Sequence record: PV808484.1
DNA length: 64,000 nt
Strand: one strand, 5' to 3'
DNA from: a phage
Below are positions 33,099 to 59,376 of the stretch, one piece after another. The notes under the pieces are model-generated. The model was not told the DNA's origin. It saw only the letters and a program-made list of their open reading frames with translations, and did no database searches. The translations under genes and the position numbers were made by a program. Each line of letters begins with the position of its first letter. The stretch's first letter is position 1.

Positions 33099-33365
33099 TT
33101 ACTCCGCAATCTGAGCCATGAATTCACGTAGTTCAGAAAAACCTCCTACGTGGGTTAGCTGTTCACCATCTTCCACAAAAATCTGAGGAAATGTGCGTGG
33201 TAGAACACCTGTTTTCTCTAAAACCAGATTCTGAATCTGATCTAAAGAATAGTCTTCATCTAAGGTAAGGTATTTAAAATCCTGTTCACGCTGTTCTAGT
33301 AGAATCTTAGCGTTAGTGCAGAAAGGACAATTTGGTTTACCGTAGATAATAAAATTCATTTTCAC
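33099..33365 (-). CDS. glutaredoxin/NrdH-like redoxin
   Basis: N-terminal IYGKPNCPFC active site; next to the nrd genes. Confidence 0.8.
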   Translation of the reverse strand: MKMNFIIYGKPNCPFCTNAKILLEQREQDFKYLTLDEDYSLDQIQNLVLEKTGVLPRTFPQIFVEDGEQLTHVGGFSELREFMAQIAE

Positions 33366-34192
33366 TCCTTGTTTAAAAGTATAGTTAAAGTTCTTACAAT
33401 ACCGCTATCAACACTTCGCGGATTTAAAGTAGGATCTGTTTTTAAATAAGATGTTGCTGGTCTGACTGCTTTGGAATTATAGGTTGAAGCAGACACAGGA
33501 TTAACTGTAACAGATAAATCTATAACAAGAAATATCTTTCGTGCAAAATCATACCAAGAAATATAATCTGCACCTGCATAGTGTACAATTTTACTATTTA
33601 CACCATCTTTTACAAGTTTAAAAATTGTTTCTGCAAGATCAGGTGCATAAGTAGGACATGATAAATGATCACATACTACATTAAATTCTTTTTGACCACC
33701 GTTGTAGCGTTCCAACATAGTTTTCAAAAAGTTATGTCCAAATTCACTATAAACAGAAGCTGTTCTGATAATAAGTGCTGTAGGACAAACTGTTTGTACT
33801 AAAGTTTCACCTAATTGTTTACTGTAACCGTAGGTGTTCAAGGGGTTTGTTTTACTATCTTCTGTGCCAGCAACATGCCCATCAAAAACATAGTCTGTTG
33901 AAATATGTACAAACTGTATCAGTAAATCATTACATGCTTTGGCAATGTTTGTTGCACCGTATGCATTAACATTTATACAGGTGTTAACATCTTCTTCAGC
34001 TTTATCTACTGCCGTGTAAGCCGCACAATTCACAACAACATCAGGCACATGCTGTACAAGACTATTCATAACATCTTTAAAGTTGGTAATGTCTATATCA
34101 CTTGCTTCAATCAAAACAACATCTTCTGGTGCAACTTTTGCCAAAGATTGTCCTAATTGACCTTTTGATCCAAAGACTAAAAATTTTGTCAA
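33362..34192 (-). CDS. rmlD: dTDP-4-dehydrorhamnose reductase
   Basis: VFGSKGQLGQSL N-terminal Rossmann motif, VNCAAYTAVDKAEED, STDYVF, YGYSK; last gene of the rml operon. Confidence 0.85.
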   Translation of the reverse strand: MTKFLVFGSKGQLGQSLAKVAPEDVVLIEASDIDITNFKDVMNSLVQHVPDVVVNCAAYTAVDKAEEDVNTCINVNAYGATNIAKACNDLLIQFVHISTDYVFDGHVAGTEDSKTNPLNTYGYSKQLGETLVQTVCPTALIIRTASVYSEFGHNFLKTMLERYNGGQKEFNVVCDHLSCPTYAPDLAETIFKLVKDGVNSKIVHYAGADYISWYDFARKIFLVIDLSVTVNPVSASTYNSKAVRPATSYLKTDPTLNPRSVDSGIVRTLTILLNKE

Positions 34193-34743
34193 AGTATGAT
34201 CTCCTTTAGTGTTTTTGCTTCCTGATCTTTTTGTGACAAGATAGGTTTAAAATTAATATCATTAAAGATTAAATCAAAACCCCAATCTATATTGATATCT
34301 GGATCATTCCACGCAAGACTACATTCTGAAGTCGGATCGTAATATTCTGTACATTTATATTCAAAATCAGCAATATCGCTAATCACAACAAAGCCATGAG
34401 CGAAACCAGGAGGAATCCAAAATTGTGTTTTATTCTTTTCAGATAAGAGAACACCTACCCATTCTCCAAATGTTGGACTACCAACCCTAATATCTACAGC
34501 AACATCATAAACTTCACCACGAACACAGCGTACTAACTTCCCTTGTGGGTTTTTCTTTTGAAAATGAAGCCCACGTAGAACTCCTCGGATAGAACGTGAA
34601 TGGTTATCTTGGACAAAGTTTTGTTTACCTATGTATTGATCATATAAAGCCTGATTAAAACTTTCTAAGAAAAAGCCACGTTCATCTCCGTAAACGTCAG
34701 GTTGAATGATCAACAAATCTTCGATTTTTGTTGCTTGAATCAT
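34189..34743 (-). CDS. rmlC: dTDP-4-dehydrorhamnose 3,5-epimerase
   Basis: DERGFFLESF, RGLHFQ and WIPPGFAHGF cupin motifs. Confidence 0.85.
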   Translation of the reverse strand: MIQATKIEDLLIIQPDVYGDERGFFLESFNQALYDQYIGKQNFVQDNHSRSIRGVLRGLHFQKKNPQGKLVRCVRGEVYDVAVDIRVGSPTFGEWVGVLLSEKNKTQFWIPPGFAHGFVVISDIADFEYKCTEYYDPTSECSLAWNDPDINIDWGFDLIFNDINFKPILSQKDQEAKTLKEIIL

Positions 34744-34755
34744 TTAATTCCCCTT

Positions 34756-35625
34756 TTATTTTAATTTAAGTAAATACTTACCGTAGTCTGTTTTACTTAA
34801 AACCTCTCCAGAACTTTTTACAGAGTCTAAAGTAATCCATTCATTTTTAAAAGCAATCTCTTCCAGGCATGCAACCTTCATACCTTGTTGCTTCTCTATT
34901 GCATGAACAAATTGAGATGCTTCCATAAGACTTTCATGTGTTCCTGTATCCAGCCAAGTGAAACCTCTTCCTAGCTTACAGACACGTAAAGCCTTTTCTT
35001 TCCAGTACATCTCATTTATATCTGTGATCTCTAACTCCCCTCTAGCAGAAGGCTTAACGCTTTTAGCTTTCTGTATAACAGAATTATCGTAAAAGTACAA
35101 GCCTGTAATTGCATAGTTGCTTTTTGGTGCTTTTGGTTTTTCTTCAATACTTACTACTGTACCTTCAGAATCAAACTCAACAACACCAAATCTTTCAGGA
35201 TCATTTACGTGATACCCAAAAATATTAGCTCCACCATTCTTTTCAATATGTTCTCTAGCAGAATCTAAAATGCTACCAAAACTCTGACCAAAGAATAAAT
35301 TATCACCTAGAACAAGTGCTACAGAATCTTCACCAATAAAGCTCTCACCAATAATAAACGCTTCTGCTAAACCTTTTGGGCTGTCCTGTATTGCATACTG
35401 TAGGGAAACACCAAAAGAAGAACCATCACCTAGAAGATTTACAAAATTAATTTGATCTTCTGGTGTTGTAATTATTAGTATTTCCCTAATTCCAGAAAGC
35501 ATTAGGACAGAGAGTGGATAATAAATCATAGGTTTATCGTAAATTGGTAATAGTTGTTTACTAACCCCTTTAGTAACTGGGTAAAGTCTTGTCCCACTAC
35601 CACCCGCTAAGATAATACCTTTCAT
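34756..35625 (-). CDS. rmlA: glucose-1-phosphate thymidylyltransferase
   Basis: [39 protein letters not shown] is close to the enterobacterial RfbA N-terminus. Confidence 0.95.
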
Positions 35626-35633
35626 ACTCCTCC

Positions 35634-36623
35634 TTAAACTTTATTTTCCCACCACTCTTTGTTATCTACATACCAATCAATGGTTGAATAAAGTTTTTCT
35701 TCAAATGTGCCTTTAGCTTTCCACCCTAATTCCTTTTCAATCTTATAAGGATTCACTTCATATCTTAAATCATGCCCAGGTCTATCTGTAACCATCTCAA
35801 TGAGGCTACAAGCATCTGTTTCAGATGGATATACCGCATCCATATAATCACAAATCATATAGATTACATCAATATTAGTTCTAGGGTTTCTGCTCCCAAT
35901 ATTATATGTCTCTCCAGATTTGCCTTTAGTTACTACCAGGTGTAATGCTTCTGCGTGATCATCAACGTATAGCCAATCTCTTACTTGAAGACCATCGCCA
36001 TAAACAGGGATTGGTTTATTCATTAAGATATTTGTTATCGTCTTAGGTATTAGTTTTTCTGGATGATGATATGCTCCAAAATTATTTGAACAATTTGTTA
36101 TAACTGTCGGAATACCATAAGTACGATGCCACGCTCTTACCAAATGATCGCTTGCAGCTTTAGATGCAGCATATGGACTACTTGGTTTATAAGGATTCTG
36201 TTCTGTAAACGGATAATCCCCTTCTTCCATATCACCATACACTTCATCTGTTGAAATATGATGGAACATTTTAAGATTTGATTTATCTCCCATTAAACGA
36301 ACAGCTTCTAGAAGATTAAATGTTCCAACAATATTTGAATTTATAAAAACACTCGGTGATGCTATTGAATTATCTACGTGACTCTCTGCTGCAAGATGCA
36401 TTATATAATCTGGATTAACATCTGCCACAATCTTAGCAGTTAACTGCGCATTTGTCAAGTCAACACGACAAAACTTTACATTAGGTGTTTCTGATAAATT
36501 TCTAGGGTCTGAAGCGTAACCCCATTTATCTATAACGTAAATATCATTCTTAGTATTTTTAGCTAGGAAACGAACTACCGCACTTCCAATAAAGCCTAAA
36601 CCACCTGTTACTAAGTATTTCAT
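35634..36623 (-). CDS. rmlB: dTDP-glucose 4,6-dehydratase
   Basis: [19 protein letters not shown], catalytic [11 protein letters not shown] (YxxxK), ISTDEVYG. Confidence 0.9.
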
Positions 36624-37496: not shown

Positions 37497-37683
37497 ACTT
37501 GGCTACACCATTAACTATAATGTGACCGCAAGACATAACCCCTAGCCAATGATCACCATTCTTTTTTAAACGTTTACCGTAAACATCACAGAAACCATTC
37601 TGTAATTCGGAAGCCTCATAAGAGGCTCCCTTTTCGAAAACGTCTTTGAAGTCAGAAATTAATCCAACACAAAGTAGTTTCAT
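37465..37683 (-). CDS. hypothetical protein
   Basis: ORF track. Confidence 0.4.
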   Translation of the reverse strand: MKLLCVGLISDFKDVFEKGASYEASELQNGFCDVYGKRLKKNGDHWLGVMSCGHIIVNGVAKFEIIKGEKDD

Positions 37684-38768
37684 TAAAAGTCTAACTCCTC
37701 GTCATCACTTACATCTTTATTTGCTGAATTCAGTTTGTAAGCTGTAATTTGGATCTCCTGTGCTGCTGCTTGAATTTGATCTGGATTTAACCAAACATCC
37801 ATCCAAGGCAGTGGACTTTTCTTCGGTGCACGGAATTTGTGTTTCATTTTCAGTCTGCGATAGATAGGCGCGGCATTGAAGTAAACCCAAAGTTTGAACA
37901 ACTCTGCGTTACCACCAACGATAACCCTTCCTTCACTAAACAGATAGTCACACCAATCTTCCTCTTGTCCAACTACCGTATCAAGAATTTCTGTCAGAAC
38001 GTCGATATTGTCTTCGTATACTTTTCTCCAGACAGGATCTTTCAGCAGTGCATCAATAATAGCATAATCCATTTTAACGTGCAATAGTTCATCCAACATA
38101 ATTTTTTGAATGAGTTTAGCTGCACCTACAAACAGTTGCTGCTCTGCTAAGGCAAATGTTGCAGCAAAAGATGATATGAATTGAATGCCTTCCAGACCGA
38201 TAAGTGCAATCATTCCTTTCAGAATCAGTAGACGAAGGTTATCATCCTTCTCAATCAGACCTAGAGCATATTTATGTCCTGCCTCTGCCAGATCACTCAT
38301 TATCTCTTCAACTATACCCATCCTCTGGAAGATTCTTTCGTTCTCCATAATCTGATCGATAACTTCATTTGGATTAGGGATACACTGACGAATAATTTCA
38401 GAATATGTCAAAGCGTGTAAAACTTCCATTTCTGATTGCTTCATCATCATTGCACATGCTTCGTTGTTGCTTAAAAATGGTGCAAACAAAGTGATGATTG
38501 ATTTAGCAAGTGAATCATTTTCCCATTGGAAGGATAGGTTTTTGATCATAACATCATAGTTGCTTTTAGAACAAGCTACGAAATCTTTTCGTGTCTGATC
38601 TAAGTTTACTTCGTTTTCATCCCAATCTTGCTGTTTTTGTAGTTTGTACAGACGATGCATTTCTGGGTATGTTACATTAATAGAATCAAAAATACCTAAC
38701 TGTTCTCCCAAAAATACAGGGTAGAAACCTTCTTTGTAAGTGTCGTTGTATAAGTTAATTGCTGCCAT
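37683..38768 (-). CDS. nrdB: ribonucleotide reductase class Ia beta subunit
   Basis: length and conserved-block layout of the R2 subunit; adjacent to nrdA. Confidence 0.85.
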   Translation of the reverse strand: MAAINLYNDTYKEGFYPVFLGEQLGIFDSINVTYPEMHRLYKLQKQQDWDENEVNLDQTRKDFVACSKSNYDVMIKNLSFQWENDSLAKSIITLFAPFLSNNEACAMMMKQSEMEVLHALTYSEIIRQCIPNPNEVIDQIMENERIFQRMGIVEEIMSDLAEAGHKYALGLIEKDDNLRLLILKGMIALIGLEGIQFISSFAATFALAEQQLFVGAAKLIQKIMLDELLHVKMDYAIIDALLKDPVWRKVYEDNIDVLTEILDTVVGQEEDWCDYLFSEGRVIVGGNAELFKLWVYFNAAPIYRRLKMKHKFRAPKKSPLPWMDVWLNPDQIQAAAQEIQITAYKLNSANKDVSDDEELDF

Positions 38769-39104: not shown

Positions 39105-39125
39105 AAGGGGGACAAAGCCCCCTAG
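39105..39125 (-). terminator. terminator hairpin GGGGGACAAAGCCCCC
   Basis: read directly downstream of nrdA. Confidence 0.5.
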
Positions 39126-39130
39126 TTTCA

Positions 39131-41392
39131 TTACATCTTACAAGCCTCACAACCGGATTCTTCATCCTCTTGAGCGAGTGAGGTTGCCGATTTTGTTCTG
39201 CTATTTAGATAGTACAAAGATTTACCACCAAGTTTTGCAAACTGAAGAATATATTGCATTTCTGATTTAATGGATAAACGACCACCTTCCATCTTAGAAT
39301 AGTCAATCCACTTATCACATGATGCACCTTGATCTAAGAATTTAGTCAATAGTCCATATGCTTCAGCCATATCTTTATCTGGCGTATCCCAAGCCGATTG
39401 GTAAATATCTTTTAGTTTATCGTAATCTGGCACAATAAACAGAACATTACCTTTTTGGCTTTGTTTATAAACTATAGTATCACGTACAGGATACACAGAG
39501 TTAGTCGTATTACTTACAAGACTACTGGACTCATTCGGAGCAATAGCTGCTAATACACTATTTCGGATACCGCCTTGTGCAATGATATCTTGTCGTAAAC
39601 CTTCCCAATCCATTTTAAGTTTAAAATTGCCAATATCATCTACAGCTTTAGCGTAGGTGTCAATAGGCAACCATCCTTCAGGCCATTTGGTTTTATGCAT
39701 CCATTCTGCATTACCTTTCTCTTTTGCCAAACGAAGAGAAGCTCTTGCTAACCAATAATAATGTCTTTCTGCTAATTCGTGAATTAGTTTTTTGCCGTAA
39801 GGATCTGAATAAGTAACAAAATTACTTGCCAGATAATGTGCAAGGTTTGTAATACCTACACCGATAGACCTACGTGCTTTAGCAGTGATTTCGTTATGTT
39901 TAAACGGATACTGCATTGTTTCAATCACATTATCAATAGTTAGAACGGTATAATATGCAACATCTTCATATTCTTCTGGTGTAACACGACCAGCTACAAT
40001 AGAAGACAAGAAGCATAATGCCAATTCTTGATCTTCTGTGTTCTCACCTGTGAAAAGATCCGTCATACTGTGAAATGCTTTCGTAGGTAAGAAAATTTCT
40101 TGGCACAAGTTTGACTGATAAATAACATCCTTAAACGGAGTATGCTTATTAGCATTATCCGCAAAGAACATATAAATACGTCCTGTCTCTGCTCTTTGTG
40201 TAATAATTTCTGCCAGAAGATCTCGTGCTTTTACAAACTTCTTCTTAATTCGTTTGCGACTAACTTTTTCATATACTTCTTCAAACTCTTCCTCGCTTTT
40301 ATAAAGCGCCTCATAGAGTTCTGGTGCTTCGTCATAACTGACTAGCATCCAATCTTTGCCTTTTGCTGCACGGCGCAGGAAAGCATTGTTTACTACAATA
40401 GAGTAATCAAGTTTATCTACTCGTTTTTCACTAACAGTAGTTGGGTTTTTCAAACGTACCAGATCTTCAAAATCAGGTTCTAGTATTGTAAACGTTACTG
40501 TTGCACTTCCACCACGACTTGCTTGTTTTGATGCTCCAACACTTGTTTCCATCCATTTCAGATATGGTAAAAGACCACCGTGAACGATACGGTTGTTCTT
40601 AACACCTTGTCCTGTAGCACGGGTTTGGAGGTTAACACCAATACCTGCATTATTCAATGTATATTCATGAGCAAGATAGTTAGCAATTGCTAAAGATTCT
40701 GCTGTATCGTCTGCTCTAAACAGACAACAAGAAGCACTACCTTTAATCTTAGTACGCAAAGTTGTTAAATAAGGTGATGGTAAATTAATCTTAAGATCAC
40801 TTACGTAGGTATATAGACGTTTAATGTCTTCTACTCTGCGATCTTTTGGTTGGATTTCCATTACCTTCATTGCTACACCAATGAATAAAAATTGTGGTGA
40901 TTCAAAAACCACATCATTGATCGCATCTTTCACAAGATACTTATCAACCATCTGGCGCAGTACGGAATAACCATAAGTTAGGTTTTTATCATGATTGATA
41001 ATTTTACCAATCTCAATAATTTCTTCTTCTGTATAATCCATTTTCCCCCAATAGCCTTTACTTACAGACATATTGTAGAAATCCAGGAGGGAGGGGATAT
41101 TGTGATATCCCCCATGAGCCTGTTTATAGATCATACCAAGAAGTAACCGACCTGCCATATCACTATATGCCTGATCTTTCTTATCAATACATGCTGCTAT
41201 CATAGCTTTATGTAAATCACGAGTAGGCACACCGTCGTAACAACGTTTAACAGCTTCGAGTTCAATTTCAGACCAATTTAATTTACCAGCAGCAAACTCT
41301 GACCATTTACGAAGTTTTTCTGGATTAAATTCTTCTTTCTTGCCGTTTGTTTTTGTTACATAACGGATAGATTTGCTTAGATACTGAGTCAC
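39131..41392 (-). CDS. nrdA: ribonucleotide reductase class Ia alpha subunit
   Basis: 753 aa; SNLCQEIFLPTK, STGRIYM blocks and C-terminal ESGCEACKM tail characteristic of NrdA. Confidence 0.95.
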   Translation of the reverse strand: MTQYLSKSIRYVTKTNGKKEEFNPEKLRKWSEFAAGKLNWSEIELEAVKRCYDGVPTRDLHKAMIAACIDKKDQAYSDMAGRLLLGMIYKQAHGGYHNIPSLLDFYNMSVSKGYWGKMDYTEEEIIEIGKIINHDKNLTYGYSVLRQMVDKYLVKDAINDVVFESPQFLFIGVAMKVMEIQPKDRRVEDIKRLYTYVSDLKINLPSPYLTTLRTKIKGSASCCLFRADDTAESLAIANYLAHEYTLNNAGIGVNLQTRATGQGVKNNRIVHGGLLPYLKWMETSVGASKQASRGGSATVTFTILEPDFEDLVRLKNPTTVSEKRVDKLDYSIVVNNAFLRRAAKGKDWMLVSYDEAPELYEALYKSEEEFEEVYEKVSRKRIKKKFVKARDLLAEIITQRAETGRIYMFFADNANKHTPFKDVIYQSNLCQEIFLPTKAFHSMTDLFTGENTEDQELALCFLSSIVAGRVTPEEYEDVAYYTVLTIDNVIETMQYPFKHNEITAKARRSIGVGITNLAHYLASNFVTYSDPYGKKLIHELAERHYYWLARASLRLAKEKGNAEWMHKTKWPEGWLPIDTYAKAVDDIGNFKLKMDWEGLRQDIIAQGGIRNSVLAAIAPNESSSLVSNTTNSVYPVRDTIVYKQSQKGNVLFIVPDYDKLKDIYQSAWDTPDKDMAEAYGLLTKFLDQGASCDKWIDYSKMEGGRLSIKSEMQYILQFAKLGGKSLYYLNSRTKSATSLAQEDEESGCEACKM

Positions 41393-41403
41393 TTCCTCTC
41401 CTA

Positions 41404-41664
41404 TTAATTGTGCATGTTTAGAACATCTACATCATAACCGCCACGCATCTCATTATATAAGCCATTTGCGTATAGAAAACCTTCAAAATGATCTATACCT
41501 TCAAAACCTTTTGCCTTTGCTTTGCGGTCTGCTTCTTGTCTTTTTGGGGATAATCTTTTAGATGTATCAAGGATAACTGTTACATTGCAACCTAATGTTT
41601 CATCAAAATAGACTTCAATTTCACAGCCTTCATATTTATTACTTTCTGTCATTTGGCCTCTCAA
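41404..41664 (-). CDS. hypothetical protein
   Basis: ORF track. Confidence 0.45.
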   Translation of the reverse strand: MRGQMTESNKYEGCEIEVYFDETLGCNVTVILDTSKRLSPKRQEADRKAKAKGFEGIDHFEGFLYANGLYNEMRGGYDVDVLNMHN

Positions 41665-42075
41665 TTAGAATTCAGAATCATCATCTCGTGATGGATCATG
41701 TTCATTTCCGAAGTCTTCCATTTTGATATGAGAGCTACCCCAACCTGTAAAATCTTCTTCTCCAAAGTGCAAAATATCTACACCTTGATAGATTCGCTTA
41801 TATTTATAGTCTTGTCGAACTGGGAAAGTATACAATGTAGTATTTGCAAACACCACACGTCGATTGTTGTTACTACGAATATTAACACCACGTTCTACTG
41901 TATAATGTCCATCGGTAGACATACCAAGCATTACTAATGCTGCTCGCAATGTAGTGTTATGATATTCGTGAGGAATTTTTCCTCCGTGCTTTTTAGCCAT
42001 TTCTTTCCAGATCGGTGTAGCCTTAATGGTAGACATACTTACGGTCGCCCAAATGGTTGTATTAATTAGTGACAT
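41665..42075 (-). CDS. hypothetical protein
   Basis: ORF track. Confidence 0.45.
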   Translation of the reverse strand: MSLINTTIWATVSMSTIKATPIWKEMAKKHGGKIPHEYHNTTLRAALVMLGMSTDGHYTVERGVNIRSNNNRRVVFANTTLYTFPVRQDYKYKRIYQGVDILHFGEEDFTGWGSSHIKMEDFGNEHDPSRDDDSEF

Positions 42076-42172
42076 AAATTCTCCTTCTCTCTTTTAAGGA
42101 GAGCATAGCTCTCCTAACGTTAGCCTATACTACACGAATCTCAATTAAAAGTCAACTATAATTTTAAGTTGA

Positions 42173-43144
42173 TCACCATTTTGTATGGTTAGTCAAAAGT
42201 TGACGATGTTGAATCCAACCACAGAAGTTTCCACTCCACAAACGATGTTTACGATCCATATGTGTAATACCTTCTTCCCAAGAGGAAGGGAACGGAGGAA
42301 TATTAATACCACCTTTCTGTTGTTTTAATCCTGACAAATCCATTTCTTTCATTGGCGTTGCCTGGTGTTCAAACGGAGATGCATGTACCTTTTGTCCAGA
42401 CAGCAAACGAGAATAGATATCCAATGCTTTATCTTTAGTATCATTCAACTTACGATAACTTACCTGAGCGCAACAAGAAGCTGAAATAGCTTTTGCTTCA
42501 TCTTCTGTCAACATTTTCTCGTTGGAGAAGGTTTCACCCAAGAAATAACGGATCATACCAGTTTCTGGATCTCGATCACGATTAACGTAAGGTGTATGCC
42601 ACTCCCCTGGGAAAAGAAGATATGGTTCAGAAGATTCATACAGTTTTTTAATTTCTTTAGCAAGAGCCTCAATAGTAGGATCTGCATCAGCATCTACGCG
42701 CAACCACAAGAAGTTTTCTAACTCTGTAGTGGTTACTACAGTCTTCATACGCTGGAATGGTTCTAGTAGTCGGTTTGCAACCTGTTTATGATAACCAGCA
42801 AGAGCAAACTCTTCTGCAAAACGTGCAGCACTTAGCGCAGCCAAGTCCCACCATTCTTTTGCAGTGTAACCTGCATCAATCAGGGCATCGTGATCTGTGC
42901 CTTTATCTTGCATACCTGGTTGGTTAGCACCAAAACGATAAGGACGTGCTGGAGATTGCCGTACCATTTCAATTAGAGTTTTAACAGGGATAGCTCGACT
43001 TGATGCGGCATTACGAGAAAACAAACGATGCGTCATCAATTCAGAGTGAATGATTCGAGGATATTCAAGTTCAAAGGTAACAATATCCTTACCTTCAGAT
43101 GTTTGAGAGTGTGCAATAATTTTTGCTGAAATAGAATCTGTCAT
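42173..43144 (-). CDS. thyX: ThyX-like flavin-dependent thymidylate synthase (extended, 323 aa)
   Basis: HRLFSRNAASSRAIP resembles the ThyX RHRxxxxxS motif (first Arg replaced by Thr); C-terminal HASPFEH block. Confidence 0.6.
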   Translation of the reverse strand: MTDSISAKIIAHSQTSEGKDIVTFELEYPRIIHSELMTHRLFSRNAASSRAIPVKTLIEMVRQSPARPYRFGANQPGMQDKGTDHDALIDAGYTAKEWWDLAALSAARFAEEFALAGYHKQVANRLLEPFQRMKTVVTTTELENFLWLRVDADADPTIEALAKEIKKLYESSEPYLLFPGEWHTPYVNRDRDPETGMIRYFLGETFSNEKMLTEDEAKAISASCCAQVSYRKLNDTKDKALDIYSRLLSGQKVHASPFEHQATPMKEMDLSGLKQQKGGINIPPFPSSWEEGITHMDRKHRLWSGNFCGWIQHRQLLTNHTKW

Positions 43145-43153
43145 TATTTCTCC

Positions 43154-43744
43154 TTAAGGTAGTAAAATACTTTCAATTTCTTCCCACTGATTATCTAAAC
43201 CAGTGATAATTACATTAGGAAGTTTCTTTAACTCTTCCAAGTATGGATCTTCATAAATAGTGTTGAAATATATTTTCAACGTTTCATCTGGAAACAGGAC
43301 AAGATTTTCAGCCCTATCATCAATAGTTACGTCGCAAGGTAATAAGTATTTTTCTTTTGTTGCGAAAAAACCATTACCAGATGTTCTACTAAAATCCACT
43401 TTATCTAAAGACCGTGTTACGTGTCTATATTTAGAACTAAGGTGTCCACCCTTAGTGTGGCTTGCTATAGATATATTAGCTCCATTTGCAATTATACGAT
43501 GAACAACATCTGTACTATTAGGTACTACGCCCATAGTATCATATAGATGTTGGTTATCCCAAAAAGAGTAAGGATCTACACCAAATTGCTTTTTAAAATC
43601 AGGGAAATATTTCGTAATATCATAATGCACAGTTTTATGTGTCTTATCAAATTTGATATTAGATCTACTTACCGCATTTAACCAATTTAACCATTCTATA
43701 TCCGCAGGAGCTATTACTAAATCCCAATCACATACTAGACGCAT
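43154..43744 (-). CDS. HAD-superfamily phosphatase, possible 5'-deoxynucleotidase
   Basis: start moved to Met with AGGAG RBS; N-terminal DWD (DxD motif I) and distal IDDR. Confidence 0.4.
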   Translation of the reverse strand: MRLVCDWDLVIAPADIEWLNWLNAVSRSNIKFDKTHKTVHYDITKYFPDFKKQFGVDPYSFWDNQHLYDTMGVVPNSTDVVHRIIANGANISIASHTKGGHLSSKYRHVTRSLDKVDFSRTSGNGFFATKEKYLLPCDVTIDDRAENLVLFPDETLKIYFNTIYEDPYLEELKKLPNVIITGLDNQWEEIESILLP

Positions 43745-44291
43745 TATTTCTCCTGTTATAACATTTTCTACACATTGTTTCGTAAATGTCTTCTCCCCCA
43801 ATAACAATCTGTTCTTTAGAGTCGATAAGTCTAGCATTGAAAATAGCTTTTCTTCCACATTTACAAATGCTTTTCAATTCTGTAATTGAATCTGCTATAG
43901 CTAATAACCGTTCAGAACCTTCAAACAATTCTGTAGCAAAATCTGTTTTAAGTCCATAGCAGAATACAGGAATATCGTAATTATCTACCACATCTCCAAG
44001 AATGTCAACCATATCTTTAGTTAGGAATTGTGATTCATCTACAAATACTGCATCTACTGGATTTTCTTTAAGCTGTGTATAAATTTCCAGCATATCTTCT
44101 TTTGTTTTAACTGGTTTTGCTTCCTCTTTAATACCTATCCTAGAAGCAATAGCACAACCAGATCTGGTATCTAAAGCTGAAGTTAAAAGAAGAACTTTCA
44201 TATTTCTTTCTTTATAGTTCCAAGCTGTTTGTAGAAGATGTGTGCTTTTACCACTGTTCATCGGACTATATCGGAAATAAAGTTTAGCCAT
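43728..44291 (-). CDS. tdk: thymidine kinase
   Basis: FRYSPMNSGKSTHLLQ P-loop; C-terminal CRKCYNRR zinc-binding tail. Confidence 0.9.
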   Translation of the reverse strand: MAKLYFRYSPMNSGKSTHLLQTAWNYKERNMKVLLLTSALDTRSGCAIASRIGIKEEAKPVKTKEDMLEIYTQLKENPVDAVFVDESQFLTKDMVDILGDVVDNYDIPVFCYGLKTDFATELFEGSERLLAIADSITELKSICKCGRKAIFNARLIDSKEQIVIGGEDIYETMCRKCYNRRNNASSM

Positions 44292-44336
44292 ATTTTCTCC
44301 TCTAACGCTCCCGTTTGTGGGAGCGATAATACTTTA

Positions 44337-44912
44337 TTATTTCTCTTCGTCAAGAAGAATTTTTACTATTTGTTTTCTTCGCTTACTTACTGTACTTTCT
44401 GGTGAAATTCCGCGCTTCGTTAGCCAATTTTTATCCTTTTTAGACTGGCATAAAGCTATCGCTTCCTTCTCCGCTTTTGCTTCCCTGAATGTCATATCGT
44501 GCTTGTCAGCATAAGCCAGGATAGCGTTACACTGCTTACAAACTACACGCAGGTCGTCTTCTGTTACATACAATAGGCGTAAAACAAAACTTGGGATATC
44601 TTCATAACAGGTTAATGTACCTGCTGCATTGATATGGTCTACTTGAAAGTCTTTCATACCTCCTGTGTGTCCACACAATTCACACTTACAATTCCAAACC
44701 TGTTTCGGTTTGCCTGTTTTCTTATCTAAAACTACATTGCCATCTTTGTCCAACCTATCGGCTTTAAATCGTACAGATTGGATCTTTTTTATCTTATTTG
44801 GGTGTCTCACCCATGCTTTCCTTAAGCAACCCCTTAAATATGTATAAAAGGCTGCTTGAGTTTTCCAAGGTGTTCCATCTCCCCAAATAACTTTAGGTTC
44901 TTTATTTTCCAA
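44337..44912 (-). CDS. HNH-type endonuclease-like protein
   Basis: CELCGHTGG...DHINAAG...CKQCN metal-binding pattern; assignment tentative. Confidence 0.4.
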   Translation of the reverse strand: MENKEPKVIWGDGTPWKTQAAFYTYLRGCLRKAWVRHPNKIKKIQSVRFKADRLDKDGNVVLDKKTGKPKQVWNCKCELCGHTGGMKDFQVDHINAAGTLTCYEDIPSFVLRLLYVTEDDLRVVCKQCNAILAYADKHDMTFREAKAEKEAIALCQSKKDKNWLTKRGISPESTVSKRRKQIVKILLDEEK

Positions 44913-45096
44913 TAGTGCTCACCTTTTTAGCTACATAATCTCCAGGTGGGATGTTATATTTAAAGAAAAGCATACGGTCTAAACCAGCCTTACACATGTT
45001 TTCTGGGATTGTGATTGTATATAGGAGTTTATCTCCACGCTTATTGTATATTTTATATACTTCACCCTCTCCGTATTGTTTACCGTGAGAAGCCAT
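44902..45096 (-). CDS. hypothetical protein
   Basis: ORF track. Confidence 0.4.
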   Translation of the reverse strand: MASHGKQYGEGEVYKIYNKRGDKLLYTITIPENMCKAGLDRMLFFKYNIPPGDYVAKKVSTIGK

Positions 45097-45481: not shown

Positions 45482-45498
45482 AAATCCTCCAAAAATAA

Positions 45499-45516
45499 AG
45501 GGGCTTTCGCCCCTTT
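45499..45516 (-). terminator. terminator hairpin GGGGCTTTCGCCCC
   Basis: recurrent element. Confidence 0.5.
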
Positions 45517-56677: not shown

Positions 56678-57571
56678 ATGAAAGTTAGTATTCTACATGG
56701 TGTTGACTGTTATGTTACTGATGTAGACGTTAAAGTGTTTACATTCTCTGGTGGAGAACAACATGTTCAATTAGATACGAACCTGTCAGGTTTCAATCAT
56801 GCTACAGACAGAATCTTACTCACATTAGAAGTAAGATCTGCTAAAGACTTGATGACTTTGGTTATGACTAAGAATGCATTGGACAATATGCTATATCATA
56901 AACCATATTGTGTTGATTTACTCATGTTGTATGTACCGTATGCACGACAAGACAGAGTGTGTGAGCCTGGGGAAGCATTTGGAGTTAAAGCATTTGCTTC
57001 TATAATTAACTCATTAAATTTCTCACGTGTTATCGTTGCTGATCCACACAGTGATGTTACTCCAGCAGTGTTTGACAGACTCTGTGTAATACCTCAAGAA
57101 GAGATTGCTTACGAAACTTTAAAATGGAAGTTACGTATGGAGAATTTTGCTCTTGTTAGTCCTGATGGTGGTGCTCTTAAGAAAATATTTAAATTATCTA
57201 AGAAAATGTCTTTAGATGTGTTCTGTGCAGAGAAGGTTAGAGATACCGCAACAGGTGCTATTGTTCGTACAGACATTTCTGTACAGGATTTCAATAAGCG
57301 TAACCTGATGATCGTAGACGATATCTGTGATGGTGGTAGAACTTTTATCGAATTGGCTAAAGTGCTACGTGCTCGTAACGCAGGTAAGATTGAGCTATAT
57401 GTTACACACGGTATCTTTTCTAAAGGTCTTAAAGAGTTAAGTGAGCACTTTGACTGCATTCATTCTCTTAATATATGGGAAGATAACATCCAAGAAGATT
57501 CCGGTGTTCTTGTTAAGAATCAGTCAGATTTGCAACAACAAATTGTATCTCCATACGTGTGGAATTTTTAA
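56678..57571 (+). CDS. prs: ribose-phosphate pyrophosphokinase (Prs)-like enzyme; candidate ADP-ribose pyrophosphokinase
   Basis: YVPYARQDR, VIVADPHSD and MIVDDICDGGRTF phosphoribosyltransferase-type blocks aligned to Prs. Confidence 0.8.
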   Translation: MKVSILHGVDCYVTDVDVKVFTFSGGEQHVQLDTNLSGFNHATDRILLTLEVRSAKDLMTLVMTKNALDNMLYHKPYCVDLLMLYVPYARQDRVCEPGEAFGVKAFASIINSLNFSRVIVADPHSDVTPAVFDRLCVIPQEEIAYETLKWKLRMENFALVSPDGGALKKIFKLSKKMSLDVFCAEKVRDTATGAIVRTDISVQDFNKRNLMIVDDICDGGRTFIELAKVLRARNAGKIELYVTHGIFSKGLKELSEHFDCIHSLNIWEDNIQEDSGVLVKNQSDLQQQIVSPYVWNF

Positions 57572-57581
57572 ATAATAAGTG

Positions 57582-57625
57582 TTGACAATAGGGAGTATGC
57601 TTAGTAAGATACTCCCACACTAACA
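57582..57625 (+). promoter_or_regulatory. TTGACA promoter plus leader hairpin GGGAGTAT-N-ATACTCCC
   Basis: read directly upstream of ATG 57643. Confidence 0.45.
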
Positions 57626-57642
57626 AACAAGGAGACATAACT

Positions 57643-59376
57643 ATGAATATTTTTGCACCTTTTGCTACTGATTGGTATAAACCTGGTCACAAGCAGATGT
57701 ACAACCAAAATACAAAACTTATTTTCTCTAATTTAACTCCTCGTAATGATAAAAACTTTGCACACTATGCAGATCGTGAAGCACGTGGTGTCATTGTTTT
57801 AGGTATTCGTAGAGCAGTAACCGATGCTCTTGTAACTATGTGGGACGGCTTCTTTAAAATGTCTCGTAGTGCAGCAGTAAATAAATTTTATCGTATGTCT
57901 AAAAATGCATTAGGTGCTTCTGCTCCTTCTGCTGAATGTTGGGGAGAATTGCACGATTTAGGTTATCTTCCGCTGGAAGTTCGATCTCTGCCAGAAGGTG
58001 TTTTGTGTCCTATTGGTGTTCCTGTGTTTACTGTGCATAATACTTTAGAAAAATTCTTTTGGTTAACTAATTATGTGGAAACACTGTTGTCAGATGAAAC
58101 TTGGAAGACAATGACTAATGCCACAGCAGCTTTTCAGTATAAGCGTATCGCTATGGCATATGCGATGGCAACGTGTGATAATATTGATCACGTTAACTTC
58201 CAGTGTCATGACTTTAGCCTACGTGGTTTAAGTAATATCGAAGATGGTTATAAGAGTGGTATCGCTCATTTGGCATCGTTCACAGGAACAGATAATATTC
58301 TGGCTATTGAAACTGTACATGATTATTATGGTATTGATTATGATCAGTTTGTTGCAGGTTCTATTCCGGCTACAGAACATTCAGTAGCAACGACTAACAT
58401 TGGAGCTATTGTTGAAGATCTGAAGGAACATTTCCCACGTCTTAAAGATGATGTAGATTGGCTTCGTTATGTAGCAGAAAAAGAGTTTCTTCGTCGTTAT
58501 ATTGAAGAAATTGTTCCAGAAGGTTTTTGTTCATATGTAGCAGATTCTTATGATTACTGGGCTGTATTGACTAACATTCTGGTAGAGTTGAAAGATTCTA
58601 TTATGTCACGAAATGGTCGTCTTGTTATTCGTCCAGACTCAGGAGATCCGGTTAAAGTTGTTGCAGGATACAATATTGAATCTTTTGATAACTATGAAGA
58701 CCTTTTAAATAATGGTATTGCGACAGCCACTGAAGTAGTTCATTTGGCTGATGTTAATAAGTATTACAATGTTCTTCAGGATTGCAGTGTTGCTGACTGT
58801 ATTGATGAAACTTATGAAATTCCTTATTATGAAGCAGTAGGTTCTATTCAAATCCTTTGGGAAGTGTTTGGTGGTACTATCAACCGAAAAGGCTACAAGG
58901 TTCTTGATCAGCATATCGGTATGATTTATGGTGATTCTATTACTGTTGAACGAGAACACGAGATCTTACGCCGACTGAAGAAGAAAGGTTTTGCAGCTTC
59001 CAATATTGTATTTGGTGTTGGTAGTTATACTTATCAGTTCAATACACGAGATACTTTCGGTTTTGCTGTTAAAGCAACAGGTAGTATCATCGGTGAACAC
59101 GAAATTTTGGTAAGTAAGGAGCCTAAAACTGATCCTGGTAAACGCTCTGCAAAAGGCTTTATTAAGGTTGTTAAGGATACCAATGGTAATCTCTCTCTTG
59201 TAGATAATCTTTCTTTTAAAGATATCCAGGATGAAGACAATGAGTTACAAGTTATCTTCAAGAATGGTAAGGTTATTACACCACAAGTAGAAGGACGTGA
59301 TGAAACATTTACTGATATCCGCAACCGTGTTGACGTAGAGGTTCTTCGTACTATGGGAACCATCCAGGTTGACTAA
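57643..59376 (+). CDS. nadV: nicotinamide phosphoribosyltransferase (NAMPT/NadV)-like enzyme
   Basis: N-terminal FATDWYKPGHKQMY block typical of NAMPT; 577 aa with extensions. Confidence 0.85.
   Translation: MNIFAPFATDWYKPGHKQMYNQNTKLIFSNLTPRNDKNFAHYADREARGVIVLGIRRAVTDALVTMWDGFFKMSRSAAVNKFYRMSKNALGASAPSAECWGELHDLGYLPLEVRSLPEGVLCPIGVPVFTVHNTLEKFFWLTNYVETLLSDETWKTMTNATAAFQYKRIAMAYAMATCDNIDHVNFQCHDFSLRGLSNIEDGYKSGIAHLASFTGTDNILAIETVHDYYGIDYDQFVAGSIPATEHSVATTNIGAIVEDLKEHFPRLKDDVDWLRYVAEKEFLRRYIEEIVPEGFCSYVADSYDYWAVLTNILVELKDSIMSRNGRLVIRPDSGDPVKVVAGYNIESFDNYEDLLNNGIATATEVVHLADVNKYYNVLQDCSVADCIDETYEIPYYEAVGSIQILWEVFGGTINRKGYKVLDQHIGMIYGDSITVEREHEILRRLKKKGFAASNIVFGVGSYTYQFNTRDTFGFAVKATGSIIGEHEILVSKEPKTDPGKRSAKGFIKVVKDTNGNLSLVDNLSFKDIQDEDNELQVIFKNGKVITPQVEGRDETFTDIRNRVDVEVLRTMGTIQVD

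What the first reader, a model, noticed from the sequence alone, without database searches (positions are those of the whole stretch)
42173..44291. Thymidylate block with an extended ThyX-like protein, a HAD nucleotidase and thymidine kinase
The ThyX-like protein is about 323 aa, roughly 80-100 aa longer than typical ThyX, and its signature reads THR...S rather than RHR...S. It is flanked by a HAD phosphatase with an N-terminal DWD motif and by thymidine kinase, and the rml operon needs dTTP. An altered ThyX-family enzyme could make a modified pyrimidine rather than dTMP.
Basis: inference. Interest (0 to 1): 0.4.

Follow-up and report, generated by a model that had tools for sequence, protein, structure and literature searches.

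The report
Ordinary phage dTMP-supply genes, rearranged ThyX
These three genes are the normal thymidine-nucleotide supply module of a known phi92-like E. coli phage; the odd-looking ThyX belongs to a very large, rearranged ThyX subfamily that also sits among housekeeping genes in bacterial chromosomes, so it almost certainly makes ordinary dTMP.

Summary
The interpretation that the enzyme makes a modified pyrimidine is not supported.

**What the window is.** It is 99.6% identical here to Escherichia phage JohannJBalmer (Bas62, Justusliebigvirus). GenBank already annotates these genes as thymidylate synthase and thymidine kinase.

**The 323-aa protein.**
- Its length and THR signature are hallmarks of a huge clade: about 5,000 clusters at 50% identity and 1,035 phage genomes, including N4, ICP1 and rV5.
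- The clade is non-colinear with canonical ThyX. The N-terminal helical hairpin carrying H53/E58/H59 has moved to residues 220-261.
- Catalytic residues equivalent to H79, R80, S88, R90, R147 and R174 are kept. Those equivalent to R74, R78 and Y91 are replaced.
- The same clade, always with THR, occupies a conserved housekeeping locus in many Eremiobacterota chromosomes.

**Evidence on the DNA.** Bas62 and its relatives are reported as exceptionally susceptible to restriction systems. PATM, 99.2% identical here, is strongly BREX-sensitive. No ThyA, DHFR or dUTPase homologue was detected in the phage.

**Most likely function.** A flavin-dependent dTMP synthase, co-transcribed with an NT5C-like dNMP phosphatase and a thymidine kinase. 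Interest is low. The undescribed topology of the clade is a modest side result.

The parts
42173..43144 (-). Long, rearranged ThyX-family protein (323 aa); predicted flavin-dependent thymidylate synthase. Block A (residues 21-174) corresponds to T. maritima ThyX 61-199 and carries the THR..S..S.R motif, R125 and R149. Block B (residues 220-261) corresponds to T. maritima 21-60 and carries H254-A-S-P-F-E259-H260. Clade-specific segments are residues 62-95, 175-219 (invariant H183, P185) and 262-323 (invariant R314).
   Evidence: The start is preceded by AAGGAGaaata.
43154..43744 (-). NT5C-like HAD phosphatase (196 aa), a predicted 5'(3')-deoxyribonucleotidase. Motif I is D6-W-D8-L-V and motif IV is I-D142-D143-R. 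Its start overlaps the thymidine kinase stop by 17 nt.
43728..44291 (-). Thymidine kinase (187 aa).
   Evidence: Pfam TK 1.2e-54; NCBIfam NF003300 above its cut-off; PHROG 592.
39131..41392 (-). Context: class I ribonucleotide reductase alpha subunit, downstream in the same terminator-bounded unit. NrdB lies at 37683-38768.
45497..45516 (-). Terminator-like hairpin (8 pairs plus a T run) upstream of the unit that includes the HNH gene, TK, HAD, ThyX, two small ORFs and NrdA. A second terminator-like site lies at 39108-39122, just after NrdA.
   Evidence: A terminator is annotated at the equivalent place in phage PATM.

Best explanation
The block is the dTTP-supply module of a phi92-like virulent phage. 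TK (thymidine to dTMP), an NT5C-like dNMP phosphatase and a ThyX-family thymidylate synthase are tightly packed and probably co-transcribed with class I RNR.

The 323-aa protein is most likely a genuine flavin-dependent thymidylate synthase: dUMP + CH2-THF + NAD(P)H gives dTMP + THF. That reaction needs no DHFR. The protein belongs to a very large divergent clade in which the order of two canonical ThyX blocks is swapped. The helical hairpin that supplies the His-x-Ser/Thr-Pro-x-Glu-His flavin/folate-site residues lies near the C-terminus instead of the N-terminus. The first Arg of the RHR motif is Thr.

Shown here: the fold, the non-colinear homology, conservation of most catalytic residues, the clade's distribution, and its chromosomal housekeeping context in bacteria.

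Inferred: the actual product (dTMP), flavin use, and that new invariant basic residues (R30, R/K44, K120, R231, R314) take over the roles of the missing R74 and R78.

The phosphatase probably trims or balances the dUMP/dTMP pools. Its exact substrate is not determined.
For: - Identity. The region is 99.6% identical to Bas62, and the gene is annotated as thymidylate synthase in dozens of records.
- Non-colinear homology. Profile-profile comparison gives two significant hits: residues 21-174 to Tm 61-199 (E 1.3e-6) and residues 220-261 to Tm 21-60 (E 4e-8 to 6e-6). The real score was 47.0 against a maximum of 24.8 in 200 column shuffles.
- Catalytic residues. Across 121 representatives at or below about 63% identity (almost all ≤55%), the equivalents are: H79 121/121, R80 96/121, S83 109, N85 117, S88 120, R90 121, R147 120, N169 120, R174 121, H53 121, E58 114, H59 120.
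- Inteins. In homologues, inteins interrupt exactly these motifs at 6 or more sites, as is typical of catalytic sites.
- Cellular homologues. All keep THR..SRNAASSRAIP. They lie between msrA/glmU/gltX and an M48 peptidase gene: M48 is adjacent in 27 of 63 loci, GlmU in 17 and GltX in 15.
- Phage distribution. The clade is in 1,035 phage records, including N4 and ICP1.
- No alternative enzyme. No ThyA, canonical ThyX, Dut or FolA homologue was found in the whole Bas62 genome by tblastn or in its annotation.
- Restriction data. PMC8594841 and PMC8565348 report RM and BREX sensitivity.
- Operon structure. Strong Shine-Dalgarno sites, a 17-nt overlap and a 9-nt gap link the genes, and terminator-like sites bracket the unit.
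Against: - Three residues that contact dUMP or flavin in solved ThyX enzymes are replaced family-wide: R74 by S/A, R78 by T, and the Tyr91 lid by Ala.
- The protein scores 35.8 bits against a cut-off of 87.9 for the NCBIfam thyX equivalog. No PDB entry is a sequence relative.
- I found no biochemical or genetic test of any member of this clade in the searchable literature.
- I could not check that the bacterial genomes carrying it lack thyA or a canonical thyX.
- The restriction data are indirect and would not exclude a small, non-protective thymine modification.
Confidence: 0.85

Rival explanations
1. The remodelled active site (T for R78, A for Y91, S/A for R74) gives a different product or substrate. 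Examples would be 5-hydroxymethyl-dUMP, a dCMP or UMP methylase as in PolB, or a precursor later glycosylated using the phage's dTDP-rhamnose genes and glycosyltransferases.
For: - Active-site substitutions are invariant in the clade, and in solved enzymes these residues contact dUMP and the flavin (PMC6514825).
- A ThyX homologue with altered specificity exists, and PolB is the second-best structural match.
- The phage carries rmlABCD and glycosyltransferase-like genes.
- A dNMP phosphatase sits next door.
Against: - The same signature occurs at a conserved housekeeping locus of bacterial chromosomes. It also occurs in more than 1,000 phages, including long-studied N4 and ICP1.
- Bas62 and its relatives are highly RM-sensitive, and PATM is BREX-sensitive rather than BrxU-sensitive.
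- TK in the same operon makes dTMP.
- There is no other thymidylate synthase in the phage, so replication of a genome that is about 63% A+T would then rely on the host alone.
- Phage M6's thymidylate synthase-like enzyme, the one I checked, is ThyA-family.
Confidence: 0.07
2. It is a true dTMP synthase but with a changed cofactor chemistry relative to canonical ThyX. It might bind FMN instead of FAD, or use a different reductant or oligomer, because the residue that bridges the FAD and dUMP (R78) is missing and the topology is rearranged.
For: - R78 contacts the isoalloxazine and dUMP in solved structures.
- The clade has its own invariant residues: K120, Q121, H183, P185, S229, R231 and R314.
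- There is no structure for the clade.
Against: H79, R80, N85, N169 and the H53/E58/H59 equivalents, which line the FAD and folate site, are conserved. Nothing in the sequence points to a specific alternative cofactor.
Confidence: 0.06
3. It is a catalytically dead ThyX-like protein with a regulatory or nucleotide-binding role.
For: It falls below the equivalog cut-off and lacks three canonical residues.
Against: There is very strong purifying selection on the remaining catalytic residues across thousands of clusters. Inteins are targeted to these motifs. It is the only TS-like gene in the phage.
Confidence: 0.02

Closest known systems
Canonical flavin-dependent thymidylate synthase ThyX (T. 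maritima TM0449, M. tuberculosis Rv2754c, PBCV-1 A674R; Pfam PF02511, TIGR02170)
   Different: - The order of two homologous blocks is swapped: Tm 21-60 lies after Tm 61-199.
- R78 is T, R74 is S/A, Y91 is A and E86 is A/S.
- About 100 extra residues sit in three clade-specific segments.
- It scores below the TIGR02170 cut-off.
- No structure or assay was found for any member.
PolB, the ThyX-like UMP/dUMP C5-methylase of polyoxin biosynthesis (PDB 4p5a)
   Different: PolB is colinear with ThyX and lies in an antibiotic gene cluster. This protein is in a DNA-precursor operon and shares 18% identity with PolB over the aligned part.
ThyA-superfamily pyrimidine hydroxymethylases and methylases of phages with modified DNA (e.g. 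T4 gp42, SPO1 gp29, Pseudomonas phage M6 gp58)
   Same: They are phage-encoded C5-pyrimidine one-carbon transferases located near replication genes.
   Different: The fold and family are unrelated: M6 gp58 is PF00303, with no similarity to this protein. No ThyA-family gene is present in this phage. That T4 gp42 and SPO1 gp29 are ThyA-family is from my own knowledge.
Mitochondrial/cytosolic 5'(3')-deoxyribonucleotidase (NT5M/NT5C; Pfam PF06941; PDB 1mh9)
   Same: The neighbouring 196-aa protein has HAD motifs I and IV in the NT5C arrangement (D-x-D ... I-D-D-R). NT5C is the best Pfam family, matching 18 of 20 homologues with a best E of 8e-13, and the best PDB relative.
   Different: It is very distant: 23.2 bits against a cut-off of 24.8 for this sequence, and PDB E 0.3. 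The substrate is unknown.

Membership tests
ThyX / flavin-dependent thymidylate synthase (PF02511, TIGR02170) | ThyX fold | tested here: met
ThyX / flavin-dependent thymidylate synthase (PF02511, TIGR02170) | Signature motif R-H-R-x-x-S-x-x-x-x-S-x-R, complete | tested here: not met
   The first Arg is Thr (T38), in 116 of 121 clade members. H39, R40, S43, S48 and R50 are present.
ThyX / flavin-dependent thymidylate synthase (PF02511, TIGR02170) | dUMP-binding arginines outside the motif (Tm R147, R174) and the Ser88/Arg90 pair | tested here: met
   R125 is present in 120/121, R149 in 121/121, S48 in 120/121 and R50 in 121/121.
ThyX / flavin-dependent thymidylate synthase (PF02511, TIGR02170) | Other dUMP/flavin contacts of solved enzymes (Tm R74, Tyr91 lid) | tested here: not met
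   R74 is replaced by S/A34 and Y91 by A51, the latter in 121/121. Their roles are taken from PMC6514825.
ThyX / flavin-dependent thymidylate synthase (PF02511, TIGR02170) | His53/Glu58/His59 segment of the flavin/folate site | tested here: met
   H254, E259 and H260 are conserved in 121, 114 and 120 of 121 members, but they lie C-terminal to the core, so the arrangement is non-colinear.
ThyX / flavin-dependent thymidylate synthase (PF02511, TIGR02170) | Full-length colinear match above the curated family cut-off | tested here: inconclusive
   Pfam Thy1 scores 37 bits, above its 24.8 cut-off, but covers profile positions 59-186 only. TIGR02170 scores 35.8 bits, below its 87.9 cut-off.
ThyX / flavin-dependent thymidylate synthase (PF02511, TIGR02170) | Bound FAD, NAD(P)H- and CH2-THF-dependent conversion of dUMP to dTMP; thyA complementation | not testable with these tools
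   No assay of any clade member was found in the literature held. Liu & Yang 2004 (PMC515151) is not held.
Phage thymine-replacement / hypermodification pathway | ThyA-superfamily dUMP hydroxymethylase | tested here: not met
   There is no ThyA-family match in the window or in the Bas62 genome; the best E is 2.3-5.2.
Phage thymine-replacement / hypermodification pathway | DNA resistant to restriction or sensitive to modification-dependent nucleases | tested here: not met
   This rests on literature only. Bas60-62 are 'exceptionally susceptible' to RM. PATM is BREX-sensitive and not in the BrxU-sensitive group.
Phage thymine-replacement / hypermodification pathway | Non-canonical nucleoside in virion DNA | not testable with these tools
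   I found no nucleoside analysis of a phi92-like phage. The Durham collection study does not include PATM.
HAD superfamily, NT5C-type 5'(3')-deoxyribonucleotidase (PF06941) | HAD motifs I (DxDx[TV]) and IV (DD), with motif II Ser/Thr and motif III Lys | tested here: met
   D6, D8, S95, K130/K132, D142 and D143 are invariant in 20 homologues.
HAD superfamily, NT5C-type 5'(3')-deoxyribonucleotidase (PF06941) | Score above the Pfam gathering cut-off | tested here: inconclusive
   This protein scores 23.2 bits against a cut-off of 24.8. Of 20 homologues, 18 match NT5C, with a best E of 8e-13. The best PDB relative is mdN 1mh9 at E 0.3.
Thymidine kinase (PF00265) | Full-length match above curated cut-offs | tested here: met
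   Pfam scores 185 bits against a cut-off of 20.6. NF003300 scores 238.9 against 195.

The most novel reading that the evidence does not exclude
The rearranged THR-type ThyX clade lacks the R74, R78 and Tyr91 equivalents and has no solved structure or assay that I could find. It might differ in chemistry from canonical ThyX, in product, nucleotide substrate or cofactor. In phi92-like phages it might feed a thymine-derived DNA or nucleotide-sugar modification together with the rml and glycosyltransferase genes.

A weaker version is much more likely: the clade is a structurally undescribed, permuted lineage of ordinary thymidylate synthase.
Probability: 0.07. Interest if true: 0.65.

Novelty: already known. 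Interest (0 to 1): 0.2.

Why it matters
For this window it matters little. The block is a routine, already annotated nucleotide-supply module of a known phage, and there is no sign of modified DNA.

The side result has modest value. A very large ThyX clade, about 5,000 clusters at 50% identity, combines:
- a swapped block order;
- a THR signature;
- replaced dUMP and flavin contacts;
- no experimental structure or assay that I could find.

It is nevertheless used by many model and therapeutic phages (N4, ICP1, rV5, PAK_P1, phi92) and apparently by a whole bacterial phylum. ThyX is an antibacterial drug target, so inhibitor and mechanism work based on canonical enzymes may not transfer to this clade.

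Tried and rejected
- **Direct PDB sequence search with the protein:** no hit. A 20-sequence profile gave only E of about 1 to T. maritima ThyX.
- **Second, degenerate ThyX motif at the C-terminus** (G-W-I-Q-H-R314 against Tm Q-W-F-R-H-R80, a possible relic of a tandem duplication): hhalign picks this pairing, but at score 11 and P 0.25, so it is not significant and I dropped it. Residues 1-22 and 175-219 also have no detectable counterpart in canonical ThyX. I therefore describe a swapped block order and do not claim a clean circular permutation.
- **Genome scan with the diverse alignment A2:** I used A1 instead.
- **Naive longest-ORF gene calling in the high-GC bacterial loci:** too noisy. 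I replaced it with tblastn of Pfam-annotated L038 genes.
- **Whether a known hypermodifying phage uses this clade:** M6 gp58 is ThyA-family.
- **Literature:**
  - Liu & Yang 2004, 'distinctive ThyX motifs', may already describe the clade's motifs, but it and the phi92 genome paper are not held.
  - The 2026 Durham modification paper does not cover the phi92-like phage PATM.
  - Searches for circular permutation, ThyX-like proteins or complementation found nothing on this clade.
- **Promoter scan:** not above chance, 22 found against 25 expected.
Full report
**Source and observation.** The window is a phi92-like myovirus. Region 41400-44950 is 99.6% identical to Escherichia phage JohannJBalmer (Bas62, Justusliebigvirus) and at least 98.8% identical to more than 50 other records. 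The Bas62 annotation lists thymidine kinase, a hypothetical protein and thymidylate synthase here. Two small ORFs and class I RNR lie downstream; an HNH endonuclease and exonucleases lie upstream.

The phosphatase starts at the ATG at 43744 (196 aa, MRLVCDWDLV...), not at the upstream GTG. Three things support this start: the site AGGAGaaataATG, the GenBank annotation, and all 19 aligned homologues beginning at that Met. ThyX has the same kind of ribosome-binding site, AAGGAGaaataATG. TK and the phosphatase overlap by 17 nt, and the phosphatase and ThyX are 9 nt apart. Terminator-like hairpins at 45516-45497 and 39122-39108 bracket a unit that runs from the HNH gene through TK, HAD, ThyX and two small ORFs to NrdA.

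**The ThyX-like protein is ThyX-fold but not colinear with ThyX.**
- Pfam Thy1 matches only residues 22-170, to profile positions 59-186 of 191.
- The NCBIfam thyX equivalog scores 35.8 bits against a cut-off of 87.9.
- No PDB sequence is detectably related to the single sequence.

I built two profiles: 121 diverse family representatives, and 119 canonical ThyX sequences anchored on T. maritima ThyX. hhalign returned two significant hits that are not colinear. Residues 21-174 match Tm 61-199 (probability 90.7%, E 1.3e-6). Residues 220-261 match Tm 21-60 (probability 85-95%, E 4e-8 to 6e-6). In 200 column shuffles of residues 205-270 the best score was 24.8, against 47.0 for the real segment.

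So the helical hairpin that canonical ThyX places between its first strands has moved. That hairpin ends in G-H53-E-T-P-F-E58-H59; here it lies after the core, as K-V-H254-A-S-P-F-E259-H260. This relocation explains the truncated Pfam match and much of the 'extension'. The rest of the extra length is clade-specific:
- a loop at residues 62-95 with invariant G77 and M78;
- a beta-rich insert at 175-219 with invariant H183 and P185;
- a tail at 262-323 with invariant R314.

These segments have no detectable counterpart in canonical ThyX.

**Active-site bookkeeping.** Using the hhalign register, the equivalents of these T. maritima residues are kept in 121 representatives:

| Tm residue | Conserved in |
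|---|---|
| H79 | 121/121 |
| R80 | 96/121 |
| S83 | 109/121 |
| N85 | 117/121 |
| S88 | 120/121 |
| R90 | 121/121 |
| R147 | 120/121 |
| N169 | 120/121 |
| R174 | 121/121 |
| H53 | 121/121 |
| E58 | 114/121 |
| H59 | 120/121 |

Replaced family-wide are R78 by T38 (116/121), R74 by S/A34, Y91 by A51 (121/121) and E86 by A/S46. According to a review of solved enzymes, the first Arg of RHR hydrogen-bonds the isoalloxazine and dUMP. The R74 equivalent binds dUMP, and the Tyr forms a lid over the reacting atoms (PMC6514825). The site is therefore genuinely remodelled. The remodelling is ancient and fixed, and it comes with new invariant basic residues (R30, R/K44, K120, R231, R314) that could compensate. 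That compensation is inference.

**Distribution.**
- The word-indexed search found 7,473 or more relatives, the closest on phage contigs of about 140-160 kb.
- The exhaustive search found 4,968 clusters at 50% identity, 1,492 of them below E 1e-30.
- In GenBank phages, 1,035 of 50,697 records encode it. These include N4, ICP1, rV5, PVP-SE1-like, phAPEC8, PAK_P1-like, phiCbK-like and N4-like roseophages, and it is usually annotated as (FAD-dependent) thymidylate synthase.
- In one-genome-per-species bacterial and archaeal assemblies, 63 loci were found.
- All twelve sequences in alignment A3 carry T-H-R...S-R-N-A-A-S-S-R-A-I-P.

In Candidatus Lustribacter (5.5-Mb chromosome OZ255842.1) the neighbours are methylmalonyl-CoA mutase, gltX, glmU, an MFS transporter and msrA upstream, and an M48 peptidase downstream. 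The M48 gene is adjacent in 27 of the 63 loci at only 36-97% identity, glmU in 17 and gltX in 15. This is a deeply conserved chromosomal position, not a prophage. A housekeeping ThyX homologue in cells with ordinary DNA is the strongest indirect evidence that the clade makes dTMP. I could not verify that these genomes lack thyA or canonical thyX.

**Inteins.** Homologues of 520-680 aa carry Intein_splicing/HNH or LAGLIDADG inserts. Six or more sites are used: after H33, after R40, before S43, before S49, after H151 and after H254. Inteins favour catalytic motifs. They mark both the THR motif and the relocated H254 segment as functional.

**Is the DNA modified?** Nothing points that way.
- The phage has no ThyA-family, canonical ThyX, dUTPase or DHFR homologue by tblastn or by annotation. 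This is its only thymidylate synthase. ThyX chemistry needs no DHFR.
- Jumbo-phage comparative genomics also finds ThyA and ThyX anticorrelated, as expected for isofunctional enzymes (PMC7824862).
- The BASEL study, which isolated Bas62, reports that Vequintavirinae and phi92-like relatives are 'exceptionally susceptible' to RM systems. [quoted passage not shown]
- Phage PATM, 99.2% identical in this region, is restricted about seven orders of magnitude by BREX. It is not among the phages restricted by the modification-dependent enzyme BrxU (PMC8565348).
- The thymine-hypermodifying phage M6 uses a ThyA-family enzyme unrelated to this protein.
- A thymidine kinase in the same operon makes dTMP, the opposite of what thymine-excluding phages need.

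**The neighbours.** TK is unambiguous. The 196-aa protein keeps HAD motifs I-IV (D6, D8, S95, K130/K132, D142, D143). Its homologues match Pfam NT5C (18 of 20, best E 8e-13), though this sequence scores 23.2 bits against a cut-off of 24.8. The nearest solved relative is human mitochondrial 5'(3')-deoxyribonucleotidase, at E 0.3 but aligned from motif I to motif IV. It is most likely a dNMP phosphatase. Whether it balances dUMP and dTMP pools or clears particular nucleotides is unknown.

**Verdict.** The 'modified pyrimidine' inference is not supported. The best reading (about 0.85) is an ordinary flavin-dependent thymidylate synthase of a divergent, rearranged clade, within a routine dTTP-supply operon of a known phage.

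What is mildly noteworthy is the clade itself: swapped block order, THR signature, replaced contacts, and no structure or assay that I could find. A 2004 paper on a Trichodesmium ThyX with 'distinctive ThyX motifs' may already cover the motif differences, but it was not available.

Noticed in passing
homologues P0133, P0138, P0141, P0142, P0162, P0202, P0207, P0229, P0234, P0240, P0247, P0248, P0251, P0257, P0261: Relatives of the long ThyX, 520-680 aa in length, carry inteins (Intein_splicing+HNH or LAGLIDADG). At least six different insertion points are used. Four lie inside the 16-residue THR motif region (after H33, after R40, before S43, before S49), one after H151 and one after H254.
   Followed up: partly
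L038:1-9848 and 26 other genome loci (L012-L061): In Eremiobacterota/Vulcanimicrobiota chromosomes the long ThyX sits at a conserved housekeeping locus (gltX, glmU, MFS, msrA | ThyX | M48 peptidase). M48 is adjacent in 27 of 63 loci. This suggests the clade is the cellular thymidylate synthase of a whole phylum.
   Followed up: partly
window 33099-36623 (-); L066:44550-47726: The phage encodes a complete rmlBACD-like dTDP-rhamnose operon next to a glutaredoxin. In the near-identical Bas62 genome, four glycosyltransferase or 'disaccharide synthase' genes lie beside the primase-helicase and DNA polymerase. Their target (DNA, virion or host envelope) is unknown. The BASEL paper notes the machinery but reports no restriction protection.
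   Followed up: no
window about 56.7-59.4 kb (+); L068:37254-39952: PRPP synthetase and nicotinamide phosphoribosyltransferase genes form a phage NAD+ salvage pair. They lie just before a cluster of about 14 tRNA genes.
   Followed up: no
L067:6867-9082 (Bas62 56867-59082, outside the window): A second HAD-like protein lies next to a phosphoribosyltransferase and a macrodomain protein. Class III RNR and its activase are nearby, so the phage carries both aerobic and anaerobic RNRs.
   Followed up: no
window 44337-44912 (-): An HNH endonuclease (PHROG 1985, 9.5e-66) lies between the exonuclease genes and the TK-HAD-ThyX genes. It is probably a free-standing homing endonuclease.
   Followed up: no
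one search hit list (e.g. MG065639.1 Campylobacter phage A150): Four records labelled Campylobacter phage, with host C. jejuni, are about 98.8% identical to E. coli phi92-like phages across this region. The host label looks doubtful.
   Followed up: no
window 42203-42220 (residues 309-314 of the ThyX-like protein): The C-terminal G-W-I-Q-H-R314 resembles the canonical Q-W-F-R-H-R80 of the ThyX motif. R314 is invariant (121/121) and Q312 is nearly so (117/121). The profile match is not significant (score 11), so a duplication origin is only a hint.
   Followed up: yes
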